A stretch of 64,000 nt of DNA, taken from the UHGV virus genome UHGV-1366603; one strand, given 5' to 3'. The position numbers are program-made. The DNA comes from a virus. Each line of letters begins with the position of its first letter. Within the stretch, counting starts at the first letter, position 1. Shown one piece after another: positions 15,001 through 42,000 of this stretch.

Positions 15001-18000
15001 TACGTGACCACTACCGCTTCGCCCACCACATTCTCACTGAAGGCGGTTGTCTACACCATTTATTACCCGTGAAGCAAGACGACGATTACCGGTTAAAAGC
15101 GGCTGAAATCGTTGCTTGTATTTTAGAGAATTAATCACATACCCCTACCTTCGGGTAGGGGGTTATTTAATTTTTTCTCAGATAGATATTACCTTAGTGA
15201 GATTACACAATAACCTCTTTACGACTTGTTCTACAGATTAGGATTAATTACCATGACTTATAATCACAACTCTATTGTTTTAGCAAAACGTAAATTCGGT
15301 CTTCATCTTTCTTACGTGATTCGTCATTTGACAGCGAAAGACATTACACAGCGTGAACTTGCCCAGCTTGCGAAAGTTTCACAATCGGTTATTTCATCTA
15401 TTAAGAACGATCGTAGCGAACGCCTGAGTCTACCGATAATGATGAAGGTTGCTGATGCAGTTCGTCTGAAATACCAGATTACGTTTAATTCCATTAAAGG
15501 GCGTTGCTCAGTAACGGTTCACGTAGAGTCTGCGTTGGACTACGTTGCAAATACGTCCCTTAAACGTACCGCGAAGAATATTCGTTTTGTTACTAACAGC
15601 GCAACACACTAACCAACCTAAAGGAGTAATATCATGGCACCGAGAACTAAGAAAACCGAAGTTAAAGAAACTGTAGAAAAGCCGACTGATAATAAGGAAG
15701 CGGAAGTTAAGCAGACTGGGCCTAACAAGAAACTTGTGCTTATGTCACCCGCCACAGAAATACACGGGGATAAAATCTTAAGTTACACTCCGCGCGCGAG
15801 TTTAACGATCGATATTTACCATTACCCGGTATTCGACCTGTACACGCTTGTCTGTCGACTCGACGATGAGATACTGGCAGTCGTTCCAGGTATCCACAAA
15901 GAAAAACTGCTTACGGGTTCAGTCATTAGCGAGATTTTCCTGCGCTTGATGTTTAAATCAGACGATAAGATGATCAGCCAGATTGCTAGTAAATTGACTG
16001 ACTTCTTTGTTGAGGCTTCAACGTGGTTAGGCTTTCACCCAACGGCTTATTTCGTTTTCGACACCAAAATGTTGTATGCTGAAATGGGCGATAGCGTTAA
16101 ATATCCTATCTTGCTTAATGAAGAAGTCGTTCCTTTTTCCCTTACCAGTCCTAACAAACATCTTCGCTTTCATCCGGCGTTAGAAAGCCTGATTGAATAC
16201 AATCGGTTGGAAAAATATTACGCTTATCATCGCATGTTCTTTGAACTTCTGCGTGATAAATTAAGAGGCAAAGTTCCAGATTCTAGTGCAGCATTCACTA
16301 GTTCTAAGCTTTGGTAGTTTGTAACAAACAGGGAGCTTCGGCTCCCTTTTTCTTTTTACAACTTTTTCTTTTGTTGTGAGGAAAGCCGATAAGGAGTATT
16401 AAAATGGTATATCGTAAAACGATAGAAAGAACCTCTTCTGATTTAACCGTAGGACGCTTAACCCGTAGAGATATTCGCAATCCTCAACTTCAGGCATGTT
16501 TAACGGGCCCTAACGGTGCGGTGATTCGTGAAGCACTGTGCAATACTGAGCTGAATACGTTCTCTTTACAAAAAGGAAAAACAATCCAAGGGTTTATCAT
16601 CACAAAACACATTTACGGTGATCCAACGTTACACTGCTTGTATATGCATGAAATTGTACCTGGGTGTTTGAACAAACTGAGCCTTCTATTGGTACTTGAC
16701 TATACTGGGTTTACGTACCTTAACCGAATTGCCAGGGGCGTGGAAGAAATCGCTGAGCTTAACGATTTAGGGTTTAGACATACCCACACAGCATATCGTT
16801 TAGGTACGCGTAAGCTACTGGATGTCACTTTACCGACGAACGTGAAGAACGTCTCCGGCGACTTCTATAAAGACTTAACCAGAGCACAACGTGAACAGCT
16901 CATGACGTTGTTTGGCACTAGCGTCGTTGAAAACATCAATGCTGACCCTGTAACGCGTTCTCGACAAATAATGCCGCAAGTTGAAACATTGGTGGAATTA
17001 GCGCGGCACGTCAATCACTACACTTACGTTTGGATGGACGGTAATGACGTTGTGGGTGTGGTGCAAGTTAAATCACGCAATCTTAGCGAGTGCGAACTAA
17101 AAGCCATTGCGGTAAGTGAATCACACCGGGGCCGTGGGATTGGGCGTGCGTTGTTGTACCGTGCTTTACAGATTGCTTCGACAACAGCAGCACCGTTAGA
17201 AATAGGCTGTTACAATAACAACCCAGCATTTAGACACCTGGCTGTAGATTTGTTTAAATTCCGTCCCTACGAGTACGAATTTGTTTTAGTGCGCGACGAC
17301 GATGTCGTCAGTTGGGAGCGTCGGAAAAACCGCGTCGAGTTAGTGTTAGGCGACGAAATGTCATCGTTACAAGGCGGAATTAATGCATAAACCAATTATA
17401 AAGTGGATGGGTGGTAAATCACGGATTATCGACACCTTACTACAAGTCTTACCTGAACGTACAACATTCGTTGAACCGTTTGTTGGTGCAGGGTCGGTGT
17501 TTTTGAACACACGTTATAAACGTTACATTCTTGCTGACTCTAACCCCGATTTAATACAGTTGCTGAATGTGGCGAAAGACCAACCTGAAGAACTTATCTT
17601 AAAGTCGAAACCACTATTCGAAGACGGTAACGATTGTATTAAGTATATGGAACGCCGTGAGTTGTTTAATCGCGAAACGGATATGGCTCCGTTAGACCGG
17701 GCAGCAATGTTTCTGTACTTAATGCGTCACGGTTTTAACGGGATGTGTCGTTACAACGGCAGCGGGGGTTTTAACGTTCCGTTTGGTCGCTATCCTAACG
17801 GTGTGTATTACCCGTTAGACGAGATTCGTGGTTGGGCTAAACGTTGTCAAGAACCGGAATACTTAGAAATTGTTTGTGAAGATTTCCGAACAGTTTTAGA
17901 GCGTACACCGGAAGAGAGTGTGATTTACGCAGACCCGCCTTATATACCGCTCTCAGAGACCGCTAAACACGCCCAATACCATCGGAAGGAGTTTTCCCAG

Positions 18001-39000: not shown

Positions 39001-42000
39001 ACACGCACGGAAAGTCAGTCACGATGCGTTAGTTCGAATCGACACAATAGAAGAGAAACTGTGATATAACCCCTCTCAGGAATTCCTGAGAGGGTGGAGT
39101 AACAATATGTCATTACTGTTATACAAATTCAGATGTTGGCTAGACACCTCGTTTAAAACCTGGGCTTGTGGTGAGAACGTCAGAACGATCGTTAAAGCAA
39201 CAGACTGGTATACCGAAATTGTGGTACTCCCTGACGGTAAACTAATTAATGTTCAGGTACGCAATATCACCGTCAGGATAGGTCGTAAAGGCGGTGCTAT
39301 TTTTCTTCCCGAACTCTATCTGGTTTCTGCATTGGAACTGAAGGCAGGACCGATGTTATTTGGTCGAACAGCGCAACACTATTTCGATACGCTTATTAAA
39401 CTTAGTAATAGTGTAAAGAAATTAGGTGAGTCGGTCCATAGATTTATTAAAGAAACTGAACGAACTACGGTGGAGATTTAAAGGATGGAAAGTAAAATCA
39501 CAAACACATCAGCACCTGAGAACATTGTCAACTATATTCTCAGTGGCGGATTGTTAGAAGACAACAAAGAAACGTGTGATAAACTCGTTTCTCAACTATT
39601 GCCGATTCGTTCAGAATACTGCGAAGTCGTTATCCTGGGTTCTGAGTATTGCGTACGTTCGTACTGTCGTCGTTTCGAAGCCTTACGCGTTCCGCGTACG
39701 TTAGGTGGCGTGATACTCTTAGTCTCTAACTTTCACAATGCACACGTTCGTGTTGCAACCTGGATTGCAAACGGTGGCGATAATGGTTTTTAAACTAATT
39801 CGACTATTTAAACGTAAGAGATGTCCTGTATGTGAAATTAATGAAAAGATTATTGCTGAGCAAGACGAGCTAATCAAGCAACAAGATAAGTTGCTCACTG
39901 AAATGGGCGAACTCTATTTTAAACTTTGTGCTATTACCGAACTGATTAGTGAAGGTCTGTTAACGAAAGACGGTGGGTTAGAGTTGGTCAAGAAGGCAAC
40001 GATTCACTGTCGCCCTGAAGTAGAAAAATATAAACTTGAAGTGAAACGTGAAATGTGGGAGATTATTAATGAAGCGTGAAACAGTTGTATTTTGTAGTAA
40101 TGGTGATGTGGTTTTGTTTCGTGGTAAGAAACGTATTCGTACGTTAGAATACCGAGAAGCAAAACGTTTTGTTGAAGAGTGCGCATGGTTAATGCATTAC
40201 GAAGGGAACTATCGTGCTATCTTAGAAGCGCCGCGTTTAGAACGTGCGGTTGCACAGATGGCAATAGGTAATCCTAAGAACTGTTACCTGGCACGTAAGC
40301 CAAAATACATACAACGCCTTTCGTTAGGCAGCTTTATTGCTGGATTTTAATAAAAATAATTTCAGATATATATTACCTAGGTGAGAGTTCAGTTACTCTC
40401 ACTTAACAAAACCATTTTAGGAGAATATACCATGAACTTCACTAGACTTGATTACACTAACGAATTAGTTGACAAAGAAAAGTACAAATTCACTGTTGAC
40501 TTGGGTTACGGATTACTGGACGTAGAAAAAGATGTTCTGCACAAAGAATTCCGTGAGCAGTTCGGTGCTTTGTTCTACGCAGGTTTCCGCAGAAATACTA
40601 TCGATATCGGTTATAGCGCAACACCACATACCGACGAAGAAATGTTTAAGCTGGTAACACAGATTATCGGAACGCGTGGAGCCAAACGACTCAATTATTC
40701 CAACGAGCTTGTTTCGAAAGAACATTACAAGTTCACCGTTAGACTACCAGTTCACCTCACAGAAGAAGATAAGAACATCCTCTATAAAGCCCTTCAAACC
40801 GAATTCGGTAAAACGCTCAAAGTAGGGTTCCGTAATCGTAGTATCGATATCGGAATTAGTGTGGATGTGTGTAGTGACGATGACCTTTACGAATTAGTTT
40901 CGGAAGTTATCGGAAAACATCTCTAAACCTAAATTAACTCATTAACACTTCGACTTGTAAATAAGGAATAGAATATGTTTAGCTTAGAATTCAACAACAA
41001 CGTTCATGCCGCTTTCCATTCAGTAGAAAAAACCTATAAAATTAAAGATCTGTTTACTGGCAAAAGCGATGCTTTTTCGCTGATTAAAAATGGATGGAGA
41101 AAAAGCAAAGAGCTGAAACGTGATTCAAACCTTTACATTATTGAACGTTTAACTGTAACCGACAATCATGTCACTGCACGTTATGACTTTGTTGTAATGG
41201 ACGCTTTCATCCCGTTAGACAAACTGGTTATCTTGGCTGACAATGGGGAACGCTACGAGGCGGGCGAGAACGGTGAACGTTCATTTACTAATGACGGTAA
41301 ACTAAAAGTTCGCCATTCTGTAATGGCAGTTTGCTACGACGGTGAATGGCTAGGATCTCTGAATAAAGGATTGGATTTGATTGACGCCGATGATTTAGAA
41401 AATTTCGCCGATGTTTTCTCCAGTTATTTGTTTGAATATAAGTGGTGAGTTCGATGAGAAAAGAACTAAAATCAGAGTTACGCGATTACATTCGTAAATA
41501 CCCAGCCAGTATTCCGGTACTGGCTTCACTCTCTCTGTCGGGTATGGACCTTAATACCTTAACGGTAGAAAAATTCCACGAAGTGGTAAAATCGTCGTAT
41601 CAAATTGTTACCGATATGTCGGTGCGGAAACGTGCTGATTACCCAGACGGTGATTTCGGTACAGAGATGTTCACAGACTACGCAGTTGCGTATCTGATGG
41701 GACGTCACTTTATCGATAAACTCAATACGGTTGTAGAAGGAGAAACAGTCACGGAAATTGTCAATGCTTGGCAACAACGTATTGTGAGTGACGCTTACTG
41801 TCGTCAAGCCTTAAAGAAAATGTCGGCGGTAGCATTAACCAATGACCAACGTGCTTTAGAGTTCCTTAAGCACAATTACGAATAATTTACCAAAAGGAAA
41901 AGTACCATGTTTAATATTGAGATTACCCCACTCGTTAAAACTGAAATCCGTCCGGTTCCTGAAGCACAGTTACTCGATCAACTTTATCATGTATTCCTGG

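What the first reader, a model, noticed from the sequence alone, without database searches (positions are those of the whole stretch)
15176..40386. Conserved ~25-nt promoter-like element repeated at least four times
Near-identical sequences TCAGATA(T/G)ATATTACCT(T)AG-GTGAGA occur at 15176-15202, 36306-36331 and 40361-40386, with a degenerate copy at 20216-20240. Each lies just after a terminator and 40-70 nt before a gene start, and is followed by a short inverted repeat. Weaker variants with TGTGAGA occur before the 7780, 43345 and 47373 genes. This looks like a phage-specific promoter class, possibly recognised by a phage-modified RNA polymerase or phage sigma factor, with a possible operator downstream. 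The first copy precedes the HTH gene at 15253, suggesting autoregulation.
Basis: seen in the sequence. Interest (0 to 1): 0.55.

Follow-up and report, generated by a model that had tools for sequence, protein, structure and literature searches.

The report
Jumbo-phage early promoters with leader hairpin
The repeated element is real and is most likely the early promoter that a phiKZ-like giant phage uses for the RNA polymerase it carries in its own virion, which is a known kind of promoter; the only fresh point is a small RNA hairpin that starts at the predicted first base of the transcript.

Summary
The window is part of an uncultivated phiKZ-like (Chimalliviridae) jumbo phage. It is syntenic with Salmonella phage SPN3US at about 78-153 kb and 97-98% identical to IMG/VR jumbo contigs. 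Exactly four copies of the element exist, with cores at 15179, 20217, 36308 and 40363. All are on the + strand, intergenic, and 55-74 nt upstream of ORFan operons. A matrix trained only on SPN3US sites and a covariance model trained only on other phages each recover these four and nothing else. Each copy sits where SPN3US has the same element. The core contains TATATTAC-N6-G, the layout of phiKZ early promoters and of the TSS-mapped AR9 early promoters (TATATTAT-N6-G+1). The element is therefore best read as an early promoter for the virion-packaged multisubunit phage RNA polymerase, not for a sigma factor or a modified host enzyme. The downstream inverted repeat is not an operator. Across 53 distinct relatives it covaries (91% paired against 72% in shuffles, compensatory changes in 8 of 8 pairs), starts at the predicted +1, and often opens with G-U, so it is a 5'-terminal RNA stem-loop. 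The "TGTGAGA weaker variants" belong to a different motif class. No transcription start was mapped here.

The parts
15142..15161 (+). Intrinsic-terminator-like hairpin (CCCCTACC-TTCG-GGTAGGGG plus a T-rich tail) that ends the upstream operon
15167..15198 (+). Early-promoter copy 1. T-rich upstream block, 16-nt core CAGATAGATATTACCT at 15179-15194, spacer TAGT. TATATTAC-type box predicted at -14 to -7.
   Evidence: 40.2 bits; E=4.9e-6. Orthologous to SPN3US site 94238.
15199..15217 (+). Predicted +1 (G15199) and an imperfect 5' stem-loop, GAGATTA-cacaa-TAACCTC, with one A.C mismatch. The 97-98% identical relatives L021 and L080 have a perfect 8-bp stem.
   Evidence: The +1 is inferred from the AR9 rule.
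15253..16317 (+). Operon 1: Cro/C1-type HTH gene (15253-15612) and an ORFan (15634-16317), closed by terminator 16330-16347
20205..20236 (+). Early-promoter copy 2, a divergent variant. Core AAGATATATTTCATCT at 20217-20232, spacer ATGT.
   Evidence: 31.9 bits; E=0.0055. Orthologous to SPN3US site 100814.
20235..20248 (+). Palindrome GTGAGAATTCTCAC around the predicted +1 (G20237). It gives a 5-bp stem only if the two bases before +1 are transcribed.
20272..20572 (+). First gene of operon 2 (89 aa, phrog_12339, unknown function) and the terminator-like hairpin 20549-20572 just after it
36258..36286 (+). Strong 13-bp terminator-like hairpin plus T-run that ends the tail-fibre genes
36296..36327 (+). 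Early-promoter copy 3. Core CAGATATATATTACCT at 36308-36323, spacer AGAG.
   Evidence: 34.6 bits; E=0.0024. It heads the operon that corresponds to SPN3US gp141-gp132, whose site is at 109892.
36328..36351 (+). Predicted +1 (G36328) and 5' stem-loop, with GCGAA-atttaca-TTCGC as the core stem at 36332-36348. Relatives show compensating GAGTGAA/TTCACTC and GAGCGAA/TTCGCTC stems.
36379..40350 (+). Operon 3: about nine small genes, mostly without any family match, in a low-GC stretch (0.39-0.42)
40351..40382 (+). Early-promoter copy 4, the best match. Upstream TAAAAATAATTT, core CAGATATATATTACCT at 40363-40378, spacer AGGT.
   Evidence: 45.0 bits; E=8.8e-10. Corresponds to SPN3US site 113985.
40381..40402 (+). 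Stem-loop GTGAGAGT-tcagtt-ACTCTCAC (-12.2 kcal/mol, z=-5.9). Predicted +1 is G40383.
40432..43177 (+). Operon 4: five small ORFan genes. Terminator-like hairpins at 42694-42713 and 43184-43211.

Best explanation
The four elements are early promoters of a phiKZ-like (Chimalliviridae) jumbo phage. They are read by the multisubunit RNA polymerase that the phage packages in its head and injects with the DNA. Shown: the conserved anatomy is an A/T-rich block at about -32 to -21, the 16-nt core CAGATA(T/G)ATATTACCT at -20 to -5 (TATATTAC at -14 to -7), four variable bases, and then an invariant G followed by A. Inferred by homology: this G is the transcription start, at 15199, 20237, 36328 and 40383 in the window, giving 35-54 nt leaders ahead of operons of small ORFan genes. 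Shown by covariation across relatives: in the TATATTAC sub-class the first 20-25 transcribed bases form a 7-11 bp stem-loop that begins at or within two bases of this G. Inferred only: I read the stem-loop as a 5'-terminal RNA hairpin that protects the first phage messages from 5'-end-dependent decay (RNase E / RppH type). I put about 0.85 on the promoter identity, about 0.8 on the virion polymerase as its reader, and about 0.4-0.5 on the protective role of the hairpin.
For: The window is a jumbo phage of the SPN3US/Erwinia group. The portal-type protein is 73-75% identical to Asesino, phiEaH2 and SPN3US. About 40 genes are collinear with SPN3US 83-139 kb. The window is 96.7-98% nt identical to loci L021 and L080, which come from two IMG/VR contigs of 152 and 225 kb. 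The 225-kb one (3300045988_078609) encodes a 77% identical ortholog of the 1401-aa SPN3US RNA polymerase subunit. By position and mass I take that subunit to be gp241, which is listed as virion RNAP beta'N, 159.1 kDa, in virions (PMC5694885). There are exactly four hits in the window, all intergenic and co-oriented, by two models that were trained without the window. All four sit at positions orthologous to SPN3US sites, although the flanking proteins are only 25-67% identical. The exact 16-mer recurs in SPN3US, phiEaH2 and other 220-246 kb contigs with the same flanks. SPN3US has about 20 such sites. All are on the + strand, 45-115 nt upstream of an annotated CDS, and two of them precede clusters annotated as RNA polymerase beta subunit. 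phiKZ intergenic sites read TATATTAC-N6-G. AR9 early promoters with dRNA-seq-mapped starts read TATATTAT-N6-G(+1). Reviews state that every RNAP-encoding jumbo phage has such an AT-rich motif of about 10 nt at -10 upstream of its early operons (PMC7598289; PMC11512511). The downstream genes are ORFans in low-GC stretches. For the hairpin: 71% of 45 distinct copies have a stem of at least 7 bp starting 2-6 nt after the core, against 4% of shuffles. On 53 distinct sequences, 91.1% of cells are paired against 72.3% in shuffles (0 of 500 reach it), 8 of 8 pairs show two-sided changes, and slid controls give 38-55%. The first pair is G-U in 29 sequences and G-C in 17. The sense strand folds better than the antisense strand (-6.8 against -6.0 kcal/mol, p=0.007).
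Against: No transcription start, timing or polymerase dependence was measured for this phage or for any member of its clade that I could find. The +1 is transferred from AR9 and phiKZ. The window itself carries no RNA polymerase gene. Within the window the hairpins are individually weak: z = +0.3, -0.7, -1.4 and -1.9 for the whole leaders, and the 15179 copy has a mismatch. The copies used for covariation include orthologs, so they are not independent, and alignment A5 was fitted to the structure. phiKZ early promoters mostly lack such a hairpin. The AGATATTATCT sub-class in SPN3US also mostly lacks it. The hairpin is therefore not required for promoter function as such. The strand asymmetry that favours RNA over DNA structure is modest.
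Confidence: 0.8

Rival explanations
1. The elements are host sigma-70 early promoters of the T4-early type: TATATT acts as a -10 box and the upstream A/T tract as an UP element, and the unmodified host RNA polymerase reads them straight after injection.
For: The core contains TATATT, one mismatch from TATAAT, and has an A/T-rich upstream tract. One window copy is flagged as TTAATA-16-TATATT, 9 of 12. The phiEaH2-type copies L003 and L011 happen to have TTGACT 17 nt upstream.
Against: Three of the four copies are not flagged, and sigma-70-like sites are no more frequent than in shuffles (5 against 10.9, and 21 against 19.1). There is no conserved -35 box and no TG extension. The invariant flanks CAGA, ACCT and G+1/A+2 go far beyond what sigma-70 needs. 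In phiKZ, early transcription from the same TATATTAC motif does not depend on host polymerase (literature cited).
Confidence: 0.06
2. This is the first reader's version: a promoter class read by host core polymerase that carries a phage-encoded sigma factor or a phage-made modification. That would make it a middle or late class rather than an immediate-early one.
For: Long phage-specific consensus sequences are typical of phage sigma systems such as phiEco32 gp36 and T4 gp55 (general knowledge). Timing was not measured here.
Against: No sigma factor is annotated among the 264 SPN3US genes, and no sigma-type domain turned up in the window proteins scanned. The lineage has its own two RNA polymerases and does not use host subunits (PMC13282480). 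The motif is homologous to mapped vRNAP early promoters. It precedes ORFan operons and RNA polymerase subunit genes, not structural genes.
Confidence: 0.05
3. The conserved block plus inverted repeat is a protein-binding regulatory site, that is, an operator for the HTH protein encoded at 15253 or for another early regulator, and the repeat is a palindromic DNA site.
For: One copy precedes a Cro/C1-type HTH gene, and this arrangement is conserved in SPN3US (site 94238 before gp165). Two of the window repeats share GTGAGA...TCTCAC half-sites.
Against: The stems differ between promoters of one genome (GAGATTA, GAGCGAA, GAGAGT and, in relatives, GATAGA, GACTAGA, AGATGAG). Arm spacing varies from 0 to 9 nt, and the arms covary. 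When arms are swapped between copies, pairing of the inner positions drops from 97% to 46%. G-U is the commonest first pair, and it would be an A.C mismatch on the other strand. The GTGAGA half-site is itself the conserved start region, so its complement follows from the hairpin.
Confidence: 0.05
4. The promoter assignment is right, but the hairpin acts at the DNA level or during transcription. It could be a non-template-strand DNA hairpin that helps the virion polymerase open or leave the promoter, loosely as N4 vRNAP uses DNA hairpins. It could also be an early pause or attenuation signal, or a tag for export or translation of messages made in the early-infection vesicle.
For: The hairpin is tied to one promoter sub-class: 7 of 7 TATATTAC-type sites against 2 of 13 AGATATTATCT-type sites in SPN3US. 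It starts exactly at the conserved G. Many 3' arms are followed by two to four T.
Against: The stems are A/U-rich and short, and the T-runs are too short to meet terminator criteria: only one of the four is flagged. The G-U-rich first pair and the better sense-strand folding point to RNA. No data bear on export or escape.
Confidence: 0.2

Closest known systems
Early (virion-RNAP) promoters of Pseudomonas phage phiKZ and 201phi2-1
   Same: TATATTAC followed six bases later by a conserved G. A/T-rich conservation near -20 and -30. Dozens of copies per genome, upstream of hypothetical early genes. The phage family and its polymerase set are shared.
   Different: The clade studied here keeps a longer invariant block (CAGATATATATTACCT), a conserved GTGAGA start region, and a covarying hairpin at +1, which most phiKZ sites lack. 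The hosts are enterobacteria. No transcription start has been mapped for this clade.
Early promoters of Bacillus jumbo phage AR9 (AAATATATATTAT-N6-G, starts mapped by dRNA-seq)
   Same: An almost identical -10 block and identical spacing to a G start. Transcription in AR9 needs no new protein synthesis (PMC5312081).
   Different: AR9 has T where these elements have C at -7, has uracil-containing DNA, and is only distantly related. The AR9 paper does not mention a hairpin.
Coliphage N4 virion-RNAP early promoters
   Same: Early promoters served by an injected virion polymerase and associated with a small hairpin.
   Different: From general knowledge, the N4 hairpin is a DNA structure upstream of the start and is read by a single-subunit 3,500-aa polymerase. 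Here the hairpin lies downstream of the conserved block, behaves as RNA, and the polymerase is multisubunit. The element is not a member of this family.
5'-terminal stem-loop mRNA stabilisers (ompA-type leaders in E. coli)
   Same: A stem that begins at or within about two bases of the 5' end. From established knowledge, this is what blocks 5'-end-dependent RNase E attack.
   Different: The resemblance is functional only. No half-life data exist, and the 5' end is predicted, not mapped.
T7-group phage promoters
   Same: A long, nearly invariant, phage-polymerase-specific consensus that runs through the start site and is repeated ahead of operons.
   Different: T7-group promoters serve a single-subunit polymerase that is made after infection, and the sequences are unrelated.

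Membership tests
phiKZ-like jumbo-phage early (vRNAP) promoters | The genome belongs to the lineage that encodes split beta/beta' multisubunit polymerases, one set of which is packaged in the virion | tested here: met
   Met indirectly. The window is syntenic with SPN3US and 98% identical to a locus of contig 3300045988_078609. That contig encodes a 77% identical ortholog of the SPN3US 1401-aa RNAP subunit, which I take to be vRNAP beta'N gp241. The window itself contains no polymerase gene.
phiKZ-like jumbo-phage early (vRNAP) promoters | A highly conserved AT-rich block of about 10 nt centred near -10, with a conserved start base | tested here: inconclusive
   The sequence layout TATATTAC-N6-G is present in all the strong copies and matches phiKZ and the mapped AR9 sites. 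The position relative to a real transcription start could not be measured.
phiKZ-like jumbo-phage early (vRNAP) promoters | Many copies per genome, intergenic, co-oriented with operons of small hypothetical genes, and including nvRNAP subunit genes | tested here: met
   Four of four window copies and 20 of 20 SPN3US sites meet this (and the annotation). The downstream genes are ORFans. Two SPN3US sites precede clusters annotated as RNAP beta subunit. I did not verify that these are the non-virion set.
phiKZ-like jumbo-phage early (vRNAP) promoters | Transcripts appear immediately after infection and are resistant to rifampicin and independent of new protein synthesis | not testable with these tools
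   This needs infection experiments. I found no transcriptome of an SPN3US-group phage.
Sigma-70 host promoters | -35 and -10 hexamers at 16-18 nt spacing | tested here: not met
   Only the 40363 copy is flagged, at 9 of 12. There is no enrichment over shuffles.
Operator of a Cro/C1-type HTH regulator | The same (pseudo)palindromic sequence recurs at the regulated promoters with fixed half-site spacing | tested here: not met
   The stems differ and covary, and the loops range from 3 to 9 nt.
N4-type vRNAP hairpin promoters | A DNA hairpin upstream of +1 with conserved stem and loop bases, and a giant single-subunit vRNAP | tested here: not met
   The hairpin lies downstream of the conserved block and has variable sequence. 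The relatives carry a multisubunit polymerase.
5'-terminal stem-loop stabilised mRNAs | The stem begins within about 0-2 nt of the 5' end of the transcript | tested here: inconclusive
   The commonest stem start coincides with the predicted +1: offset 4 in 22 of 44 copies and offsets 2-3 in a further 15. The 5' end is inferred, not mapped.
Known RNA families (Rfam 15) | A match at or above the gathering score | tested here: not met
   No hit anywhere in the window.

The most novel reading that the evidence does not exclude
In the enterobacterial branch of the phiKZ-like phages (the SPN3US, Erwinia and Cronobacter types, including this phage), the strongest early promoters are hard-wired to a covarying RNA stem-loop that starts at the first transcribed base. 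This would be a promoter-plus-leader module that I did not find described for phiKZ, 201phi2-1 or AR9. It would mark a distinct immediate-early sub-class. The stem-loop would be needed for the survival, the release from the early-infection vesicle, or the translation of the first messages made by the injected polymerase.
Probability: 0.4. Interest if true: 0.5.

Novelty: new member of a known kind. Interest (0 to 1): 0.3.

Why it matters
Finding these promoters identifies the early, host-takeover operons of an uncultivated jumbo phage from sequence alone. The operons are 15253-16317, 20272 onward, 36379-40350 and 40432-43177. The result also shows that the virion-polymerase promoter is conserved almost base for base across Salmonella, Erwinia and Cronobacter-type phages. 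According to a 2017 paper, no virion polymerase of this family had then been purified (PMC5312081). The invariant 16-mer plus the GA start gives a defined template for such work. The coupling of a +1 hairpin to one promoter sub-class is a small, testable lead on how the first phage messages are protected or handled.

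Tried and rejected
- **Close DNA relatives:** Megablast of 8 kb of the window against GenBank phages found nothing. Relatives appeared only through protein search and the IMG/VR motif scan.
- **tRNAs and known RNA families:** None in the window.
- **Papers and supplements:** Ceyssens 2014 and Lavysh 2016, which should show the phiKZ-group early-promoter logos, are not in the library. The phiKZ TSS tables are not held as supplements. 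The TSS rule therefore comes from AR9 Table S2 and from reading phiKZ DNA directly. Literal and keyword searches for the motif or for an SPN3US-group transcriptome gave nothing useful.
- **G.T versus A.C test:** A Watson-Crick-only hairpin caller, meant to compare G.T with A.C mismatches without bias, trimmed the informative positions and told nothing. The earlier 50:4 count is biased by the caller, and I do not rely on it.
- **Ungapped alignment:** The MAFFT alignment (A1) puts the 3' arms out of register. I used a covariance-model alignment instead.
- **Second motif:** TTACR-N13-15-TRTG is not significant window-wide (15 hits against 8.8 expected). I report it only as an observation made in passing.
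- **Rejected readings:** Sigma-70 promoter, operator, N4-type promoter and attenuator. The reasons are given under the rival explanations.

Full report
**1. The observation**

The 17-mer TCAGATA[G/T]ATATTACCT is exact at 15178, 36307 and 40362 on the + strand. With up to three mismatches the window gives four matches, three of them these sites, where 0.16 are expected. The copy at 20217-20240 (AAGATATATTTCATCT ATGT GAGA) is more divergent.

I tested membership with models that never saw the window.
- A position matrix built from 20 sites of Salmonella phage SPN3US scores the four copies at 40.2, 31.9, 34.6 and 45.0 bits. The next best hit on either strand of the 64 kb scores 15.9, and the best hit in 30 shuffled windows scores 17.6.
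- A covariance model seeded with eight sites from other phage contigs finds the same four copies and nothing else (E from 9e-10 to 0.0055).

All four copies are intergenic, on the + strand, and 55-74 nt (core start) upstream of an ATG with a Shine-Dalgarno sequence. Gaps of at least 40 nt make up about 4% of the window by my own count, so this placement is not chance.

- Terminator-like hairpins precede only the 15179 and 36308 copies (15142-15161 and 36258-36286).
- The 36308 copy reads GGAGAG rather than GTGAGA.
- The 'weaker variants with TGTGAGA' are TGTGAGA at 7753 and TGTGAGT at 43331. Nothing of the kind precedes 47373 on the + strand.
- None of those sites has the AT-rich core.

**2. 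What genome this is**

There is no close DNA match among GenBank phages. The proteins, however, are those of a phiKZ-like jumbo phage.
- The window encodes a 905-aa portal-type virion protein, 1,057- and 1,727-aa virion proteins, internal head proteins and radical-SAM genes.
- The portal-type protein is 73-75% identical to Erwinia phages Asesino and phiEaH2 and to SPN3US-type Salmonella phages.
- About 40 window genes are collinear with SPN3US 83-139 kb at 25-84% identity.
- Parts of the window are 96.7-98% identical in DNA to two loci from IMG/VR jumbo contigs of one metagenome: L021, from a 152-kb contig, and L080, from a 225-kb contig.
- The 225-kb contig (3300045988_078609) and a second contig, 89% identical to the window, each encode a 76-77% identical ortholog of the 1401-aa SPN3US polymerase subunit. 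By its position and mass I take this to be gp241, which mass spectrometry identifies as virion RNAP beta'N, 159 kDa, one of five subunits packaged in the head and ejected into the cell (PMC5694885).

The window itself has no polymerase gene. That matches SPN3US, where none is annotated in the syntenic stretch.

**3. The element elsewhere**

An exact scan of IMG/VR for the 16-mer core returned 89 loci. Roughly half lie in 220-246 kb contigs. By their lengths these include SPN3US (240,413 bp), phiEaH2 (243,050 bp) and a Cronobacter CR5-sized genome.

In those contigs the flanks are also conserved...ATTAAAAAnATTT CAGATATATATTACCT AGGT GAGA..., then a hairpin, then 20-35 nt, then a ribosome-binding site and ATG. 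The hits in small unrelated contigs lack these flanks, so I treat them as chance.

SPN3US, fetched whole, has about 20 sites. All are on the + strand and 45-115 nt upstream of an annotated gene. They include sites before the HTH gene gp165, before gp154, gp141 and gp131, and before two clusters annotated as RNA polymerase beta subunit. The first four are the positional counterparts of the window copies at 15179, 20217, 36308 and 40363. In the orthologous intergenic alignments, the block TTTCAGATAnATATTACnTnnGTGAGA stands out from diverged flanks.

**4. Why it is an early promoter for the virion polymerase**

The core contains TATATTAC followed six bases later by an invariant G.
- In the first 50 kb of phiKZ, seven intergenic sites read (A/T-rich)-TATATTAC-N6-G ahead of early-region genes, including the nuclear-shell gene gp054.
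- In Bacillus phage AR9, the listed early promoters with dRNA-seq-mapped starts nearly all read TATATTAT-N6-G, where that G is the start (PMC5312081, Table S2). Those transcripts accumulate without new protein synthesis.
- A review states that every RNAP-encoding jumbo phage has a highly conserved AT-rich motif of about 10 nt centred near -10 upstream of its early operons, and that this motif was confirmed wherever transcripts were profiled (PMC7598289).
- The 201phi2-1 study adds that conservation extends to -20 and -30 and that the downstream genes are hypothetical (PMC11512511).

The window elements have all of these sequence features. Their downstream genes are ORFans apart from one Cro/C1-type HTH. 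These operons lie in the lowest-GC stretches of the window.

By transfer of the AR9 rule, the predicted starts are G15199, G20237, G36328 and G40383. The leaders are then 35-54 nt long. For comparison, phiKZ 5' UTRs are typically 31-40 nt and most AR9 leaders in Table S2 are 26-55 nt. This start assignment is an inference. Nothing here measures transcription.

**5. The inverted repeat**

I tested this in several ways.
- Among 45 distinct copies, 71% have a stem of at least 7 bp that begins 2-6 nt after the core, most often at the predicted +1. Only 4% of shuffled sequences do.
- Mean folding energy of the 36 nt after the core is -6.8 kcal/mol, against -3.0 for shuffles.
- The stems differ in sequence. 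Examples are GAGATTAC/GTAATCTC, GAGAGTT/AACTCTC, GATAGA/TCTATC, GACTAGA/TCTAGTT, AGATGAG/CTCATCT and GAGTGAA/TTCACTC.
- When 3' arms are swapped between copies, pairing of the inner positions falls from 97% to 46%.
- On a model-based alignment of 60 hits (53 distinct), 91.1% of cells are paired against 72.3% in column shuffles (0 of 500 reach the observed value). All eight pairs show two-sided changes, and sliding the partner by one to three columns gives 38-55%. This alignment was fitted to the structure and includes orthologs, so the numbers lean towards the structure. The margin is still large.
- The first pair is G-U in 29 sequences and G-C in 17. The sense strand folds somewhat better than the antisense strand (p=0.007). 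Both points favour RNA over a symmetrical DNA site.

A shared operator is therefore not supported.

In SPN3US the hairpin is tied to the TATATTAC(C/T)T sub-class. All 7 of those sites have one (-6.6 to -9.3 kcal/mol), against 2 of 13 for the AGATATTATCT sub-class (Fisher p of about 5e-4 by my arithmetic). Most phiKZ sites lack it.

In the window itself the hairpins vary. The 40363 copy has a strong one (-12.2 kcal/mol, z=-5.9), the 36308 and 20217 copies are moderate, and the 15179 copy is degraded by an A.C mismatch.

My preferred role is protection of the 5' end of the first messages against 5'-end-dependent decay. This rests on the established behaviour of 5'-terminal stem-loops in E. coli mRNAs. 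I hold this reading at about 0.4-0.5. The alternatives are help with promoter escape, a non-template-strand DNA hairpin, or a handling signal for RNA made in the early-infection vesicle.

**6. Rivals**

- **Host sigma-70 promoter:** only one copy is weakly flagged and there is no enrichment over shuffles. There is no conserved -35 box. The invariant flanks go beyond what sigma-70 needs.
- **Phage sigma factor or modified host polymerase:** no sigma gene is annotated in SPN3US. The family is reported not to use host subunits.
- **HTH autoregulation:** untestable here and without specific support.
- **Known RNA family:** none.

**7. Comparison and novelty**

This is a member of the known class of jumbo-phage early promoters, found in a new, uncultivated phage. 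[quoted passage not shown] I could not read that primary paper.

Three things are not mentioned in the papers I could search: the covarying +1 stem-loop, its coupling to one core sub-class, and its prominence in the enterobacterial clade. I therefore score interest as modest (0.3). The novel reading concerns the hairpin, not the promoter.

**8. Noticed in passing**

A second intergenic pattern, TTTACR-N14-TRTG(A), lies just after terminator T-runs at 7734, 14427, 16356 and 19795. It recurs upstream of SPN3US gp179, gp166, gp162 and gp156. It resembles the phiKZ late TATG(+1) motif and the phiKZ middle motif at about -22. It probably marks promoters for the non-virion polymerase. The pattern is too loose to be significant window-wide (15 hits against 8.8 expected).

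Noticed in passing
window 7734-7756, 14427-14449, 16356-16378, 19795-19817 (+); compare L091 (SPN3US) upstream of gp179, gp166, gp162 and gp156: A second intergenic motif, TTTACR-N14-TRTG(A), lies just after terminator T-runs and 20-45 nt before gene starts. It probably marks middle or late (non-virion polymerase) promoters. It is not significant window-wide (15 hits against 8.8 expected).
   Followed up: partly
L090-L094 (SPN3US), about 20 sites listed: The early-type sites split into two core sub-classes. The ...TATATTAC(C/T)T sites always have a +1 hairpin (7 of 7). The ...AGATATTATCT sites mostly do not (2 of 13). This may reflect immediate-early against delayed-early promoters, or strong against weak ones.
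   Followed up: partly
window 19760-19783 and 20549-20572; 14380-14399 and 15142-15161: Terminator stems are re-used almost verbatim: CCCTCTCTCC...GGAGAGAGGG twice and CCCCTACC...GGTAGGGG twice. This recalls the conserved terminator motif reported for phiKZ. The terminator at 20549 lies inside the mechanical ORF 20486-21088, so that gene's real start must be further downstream.
   Followed up: no
window 20000-22000 and 36000-42000: GC falls to 0.39-0.42, against 0.44-0.49 elsewhere, exactly over the operons headed by the element. These operons consist of small genes without family matches.
   Followed up: partly
window 29120-33643 and 35117-36252: A 1,507-aa tail-fibre gene with a T4 gp37-like C-terminal region has no SPN3US counterpart. 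The gene pair 35117-36252 is a diverged duplicate of 25103-26093 (like SPN3US gp144 and gp143). This looks like an inserted or duplicated host-range module placed just before promoter copy 3.
   Followed up: no
L095 (phiKZ) 45568: The early promoter of the phiKZ nuclear-shell gene gp054 is one of the few phiKZ sites with a stable hairpin starting at the predicted +1 (-8.8 kcal/mol).
   Followed up: no
window 15199-15217 against L021 and L080: The window's HTH-operon leader has an A.C mismatch that weakens its stem. The 97-98% identical relatives keep perfect 8-bp stems with different loop bases.
   Followed up: partly
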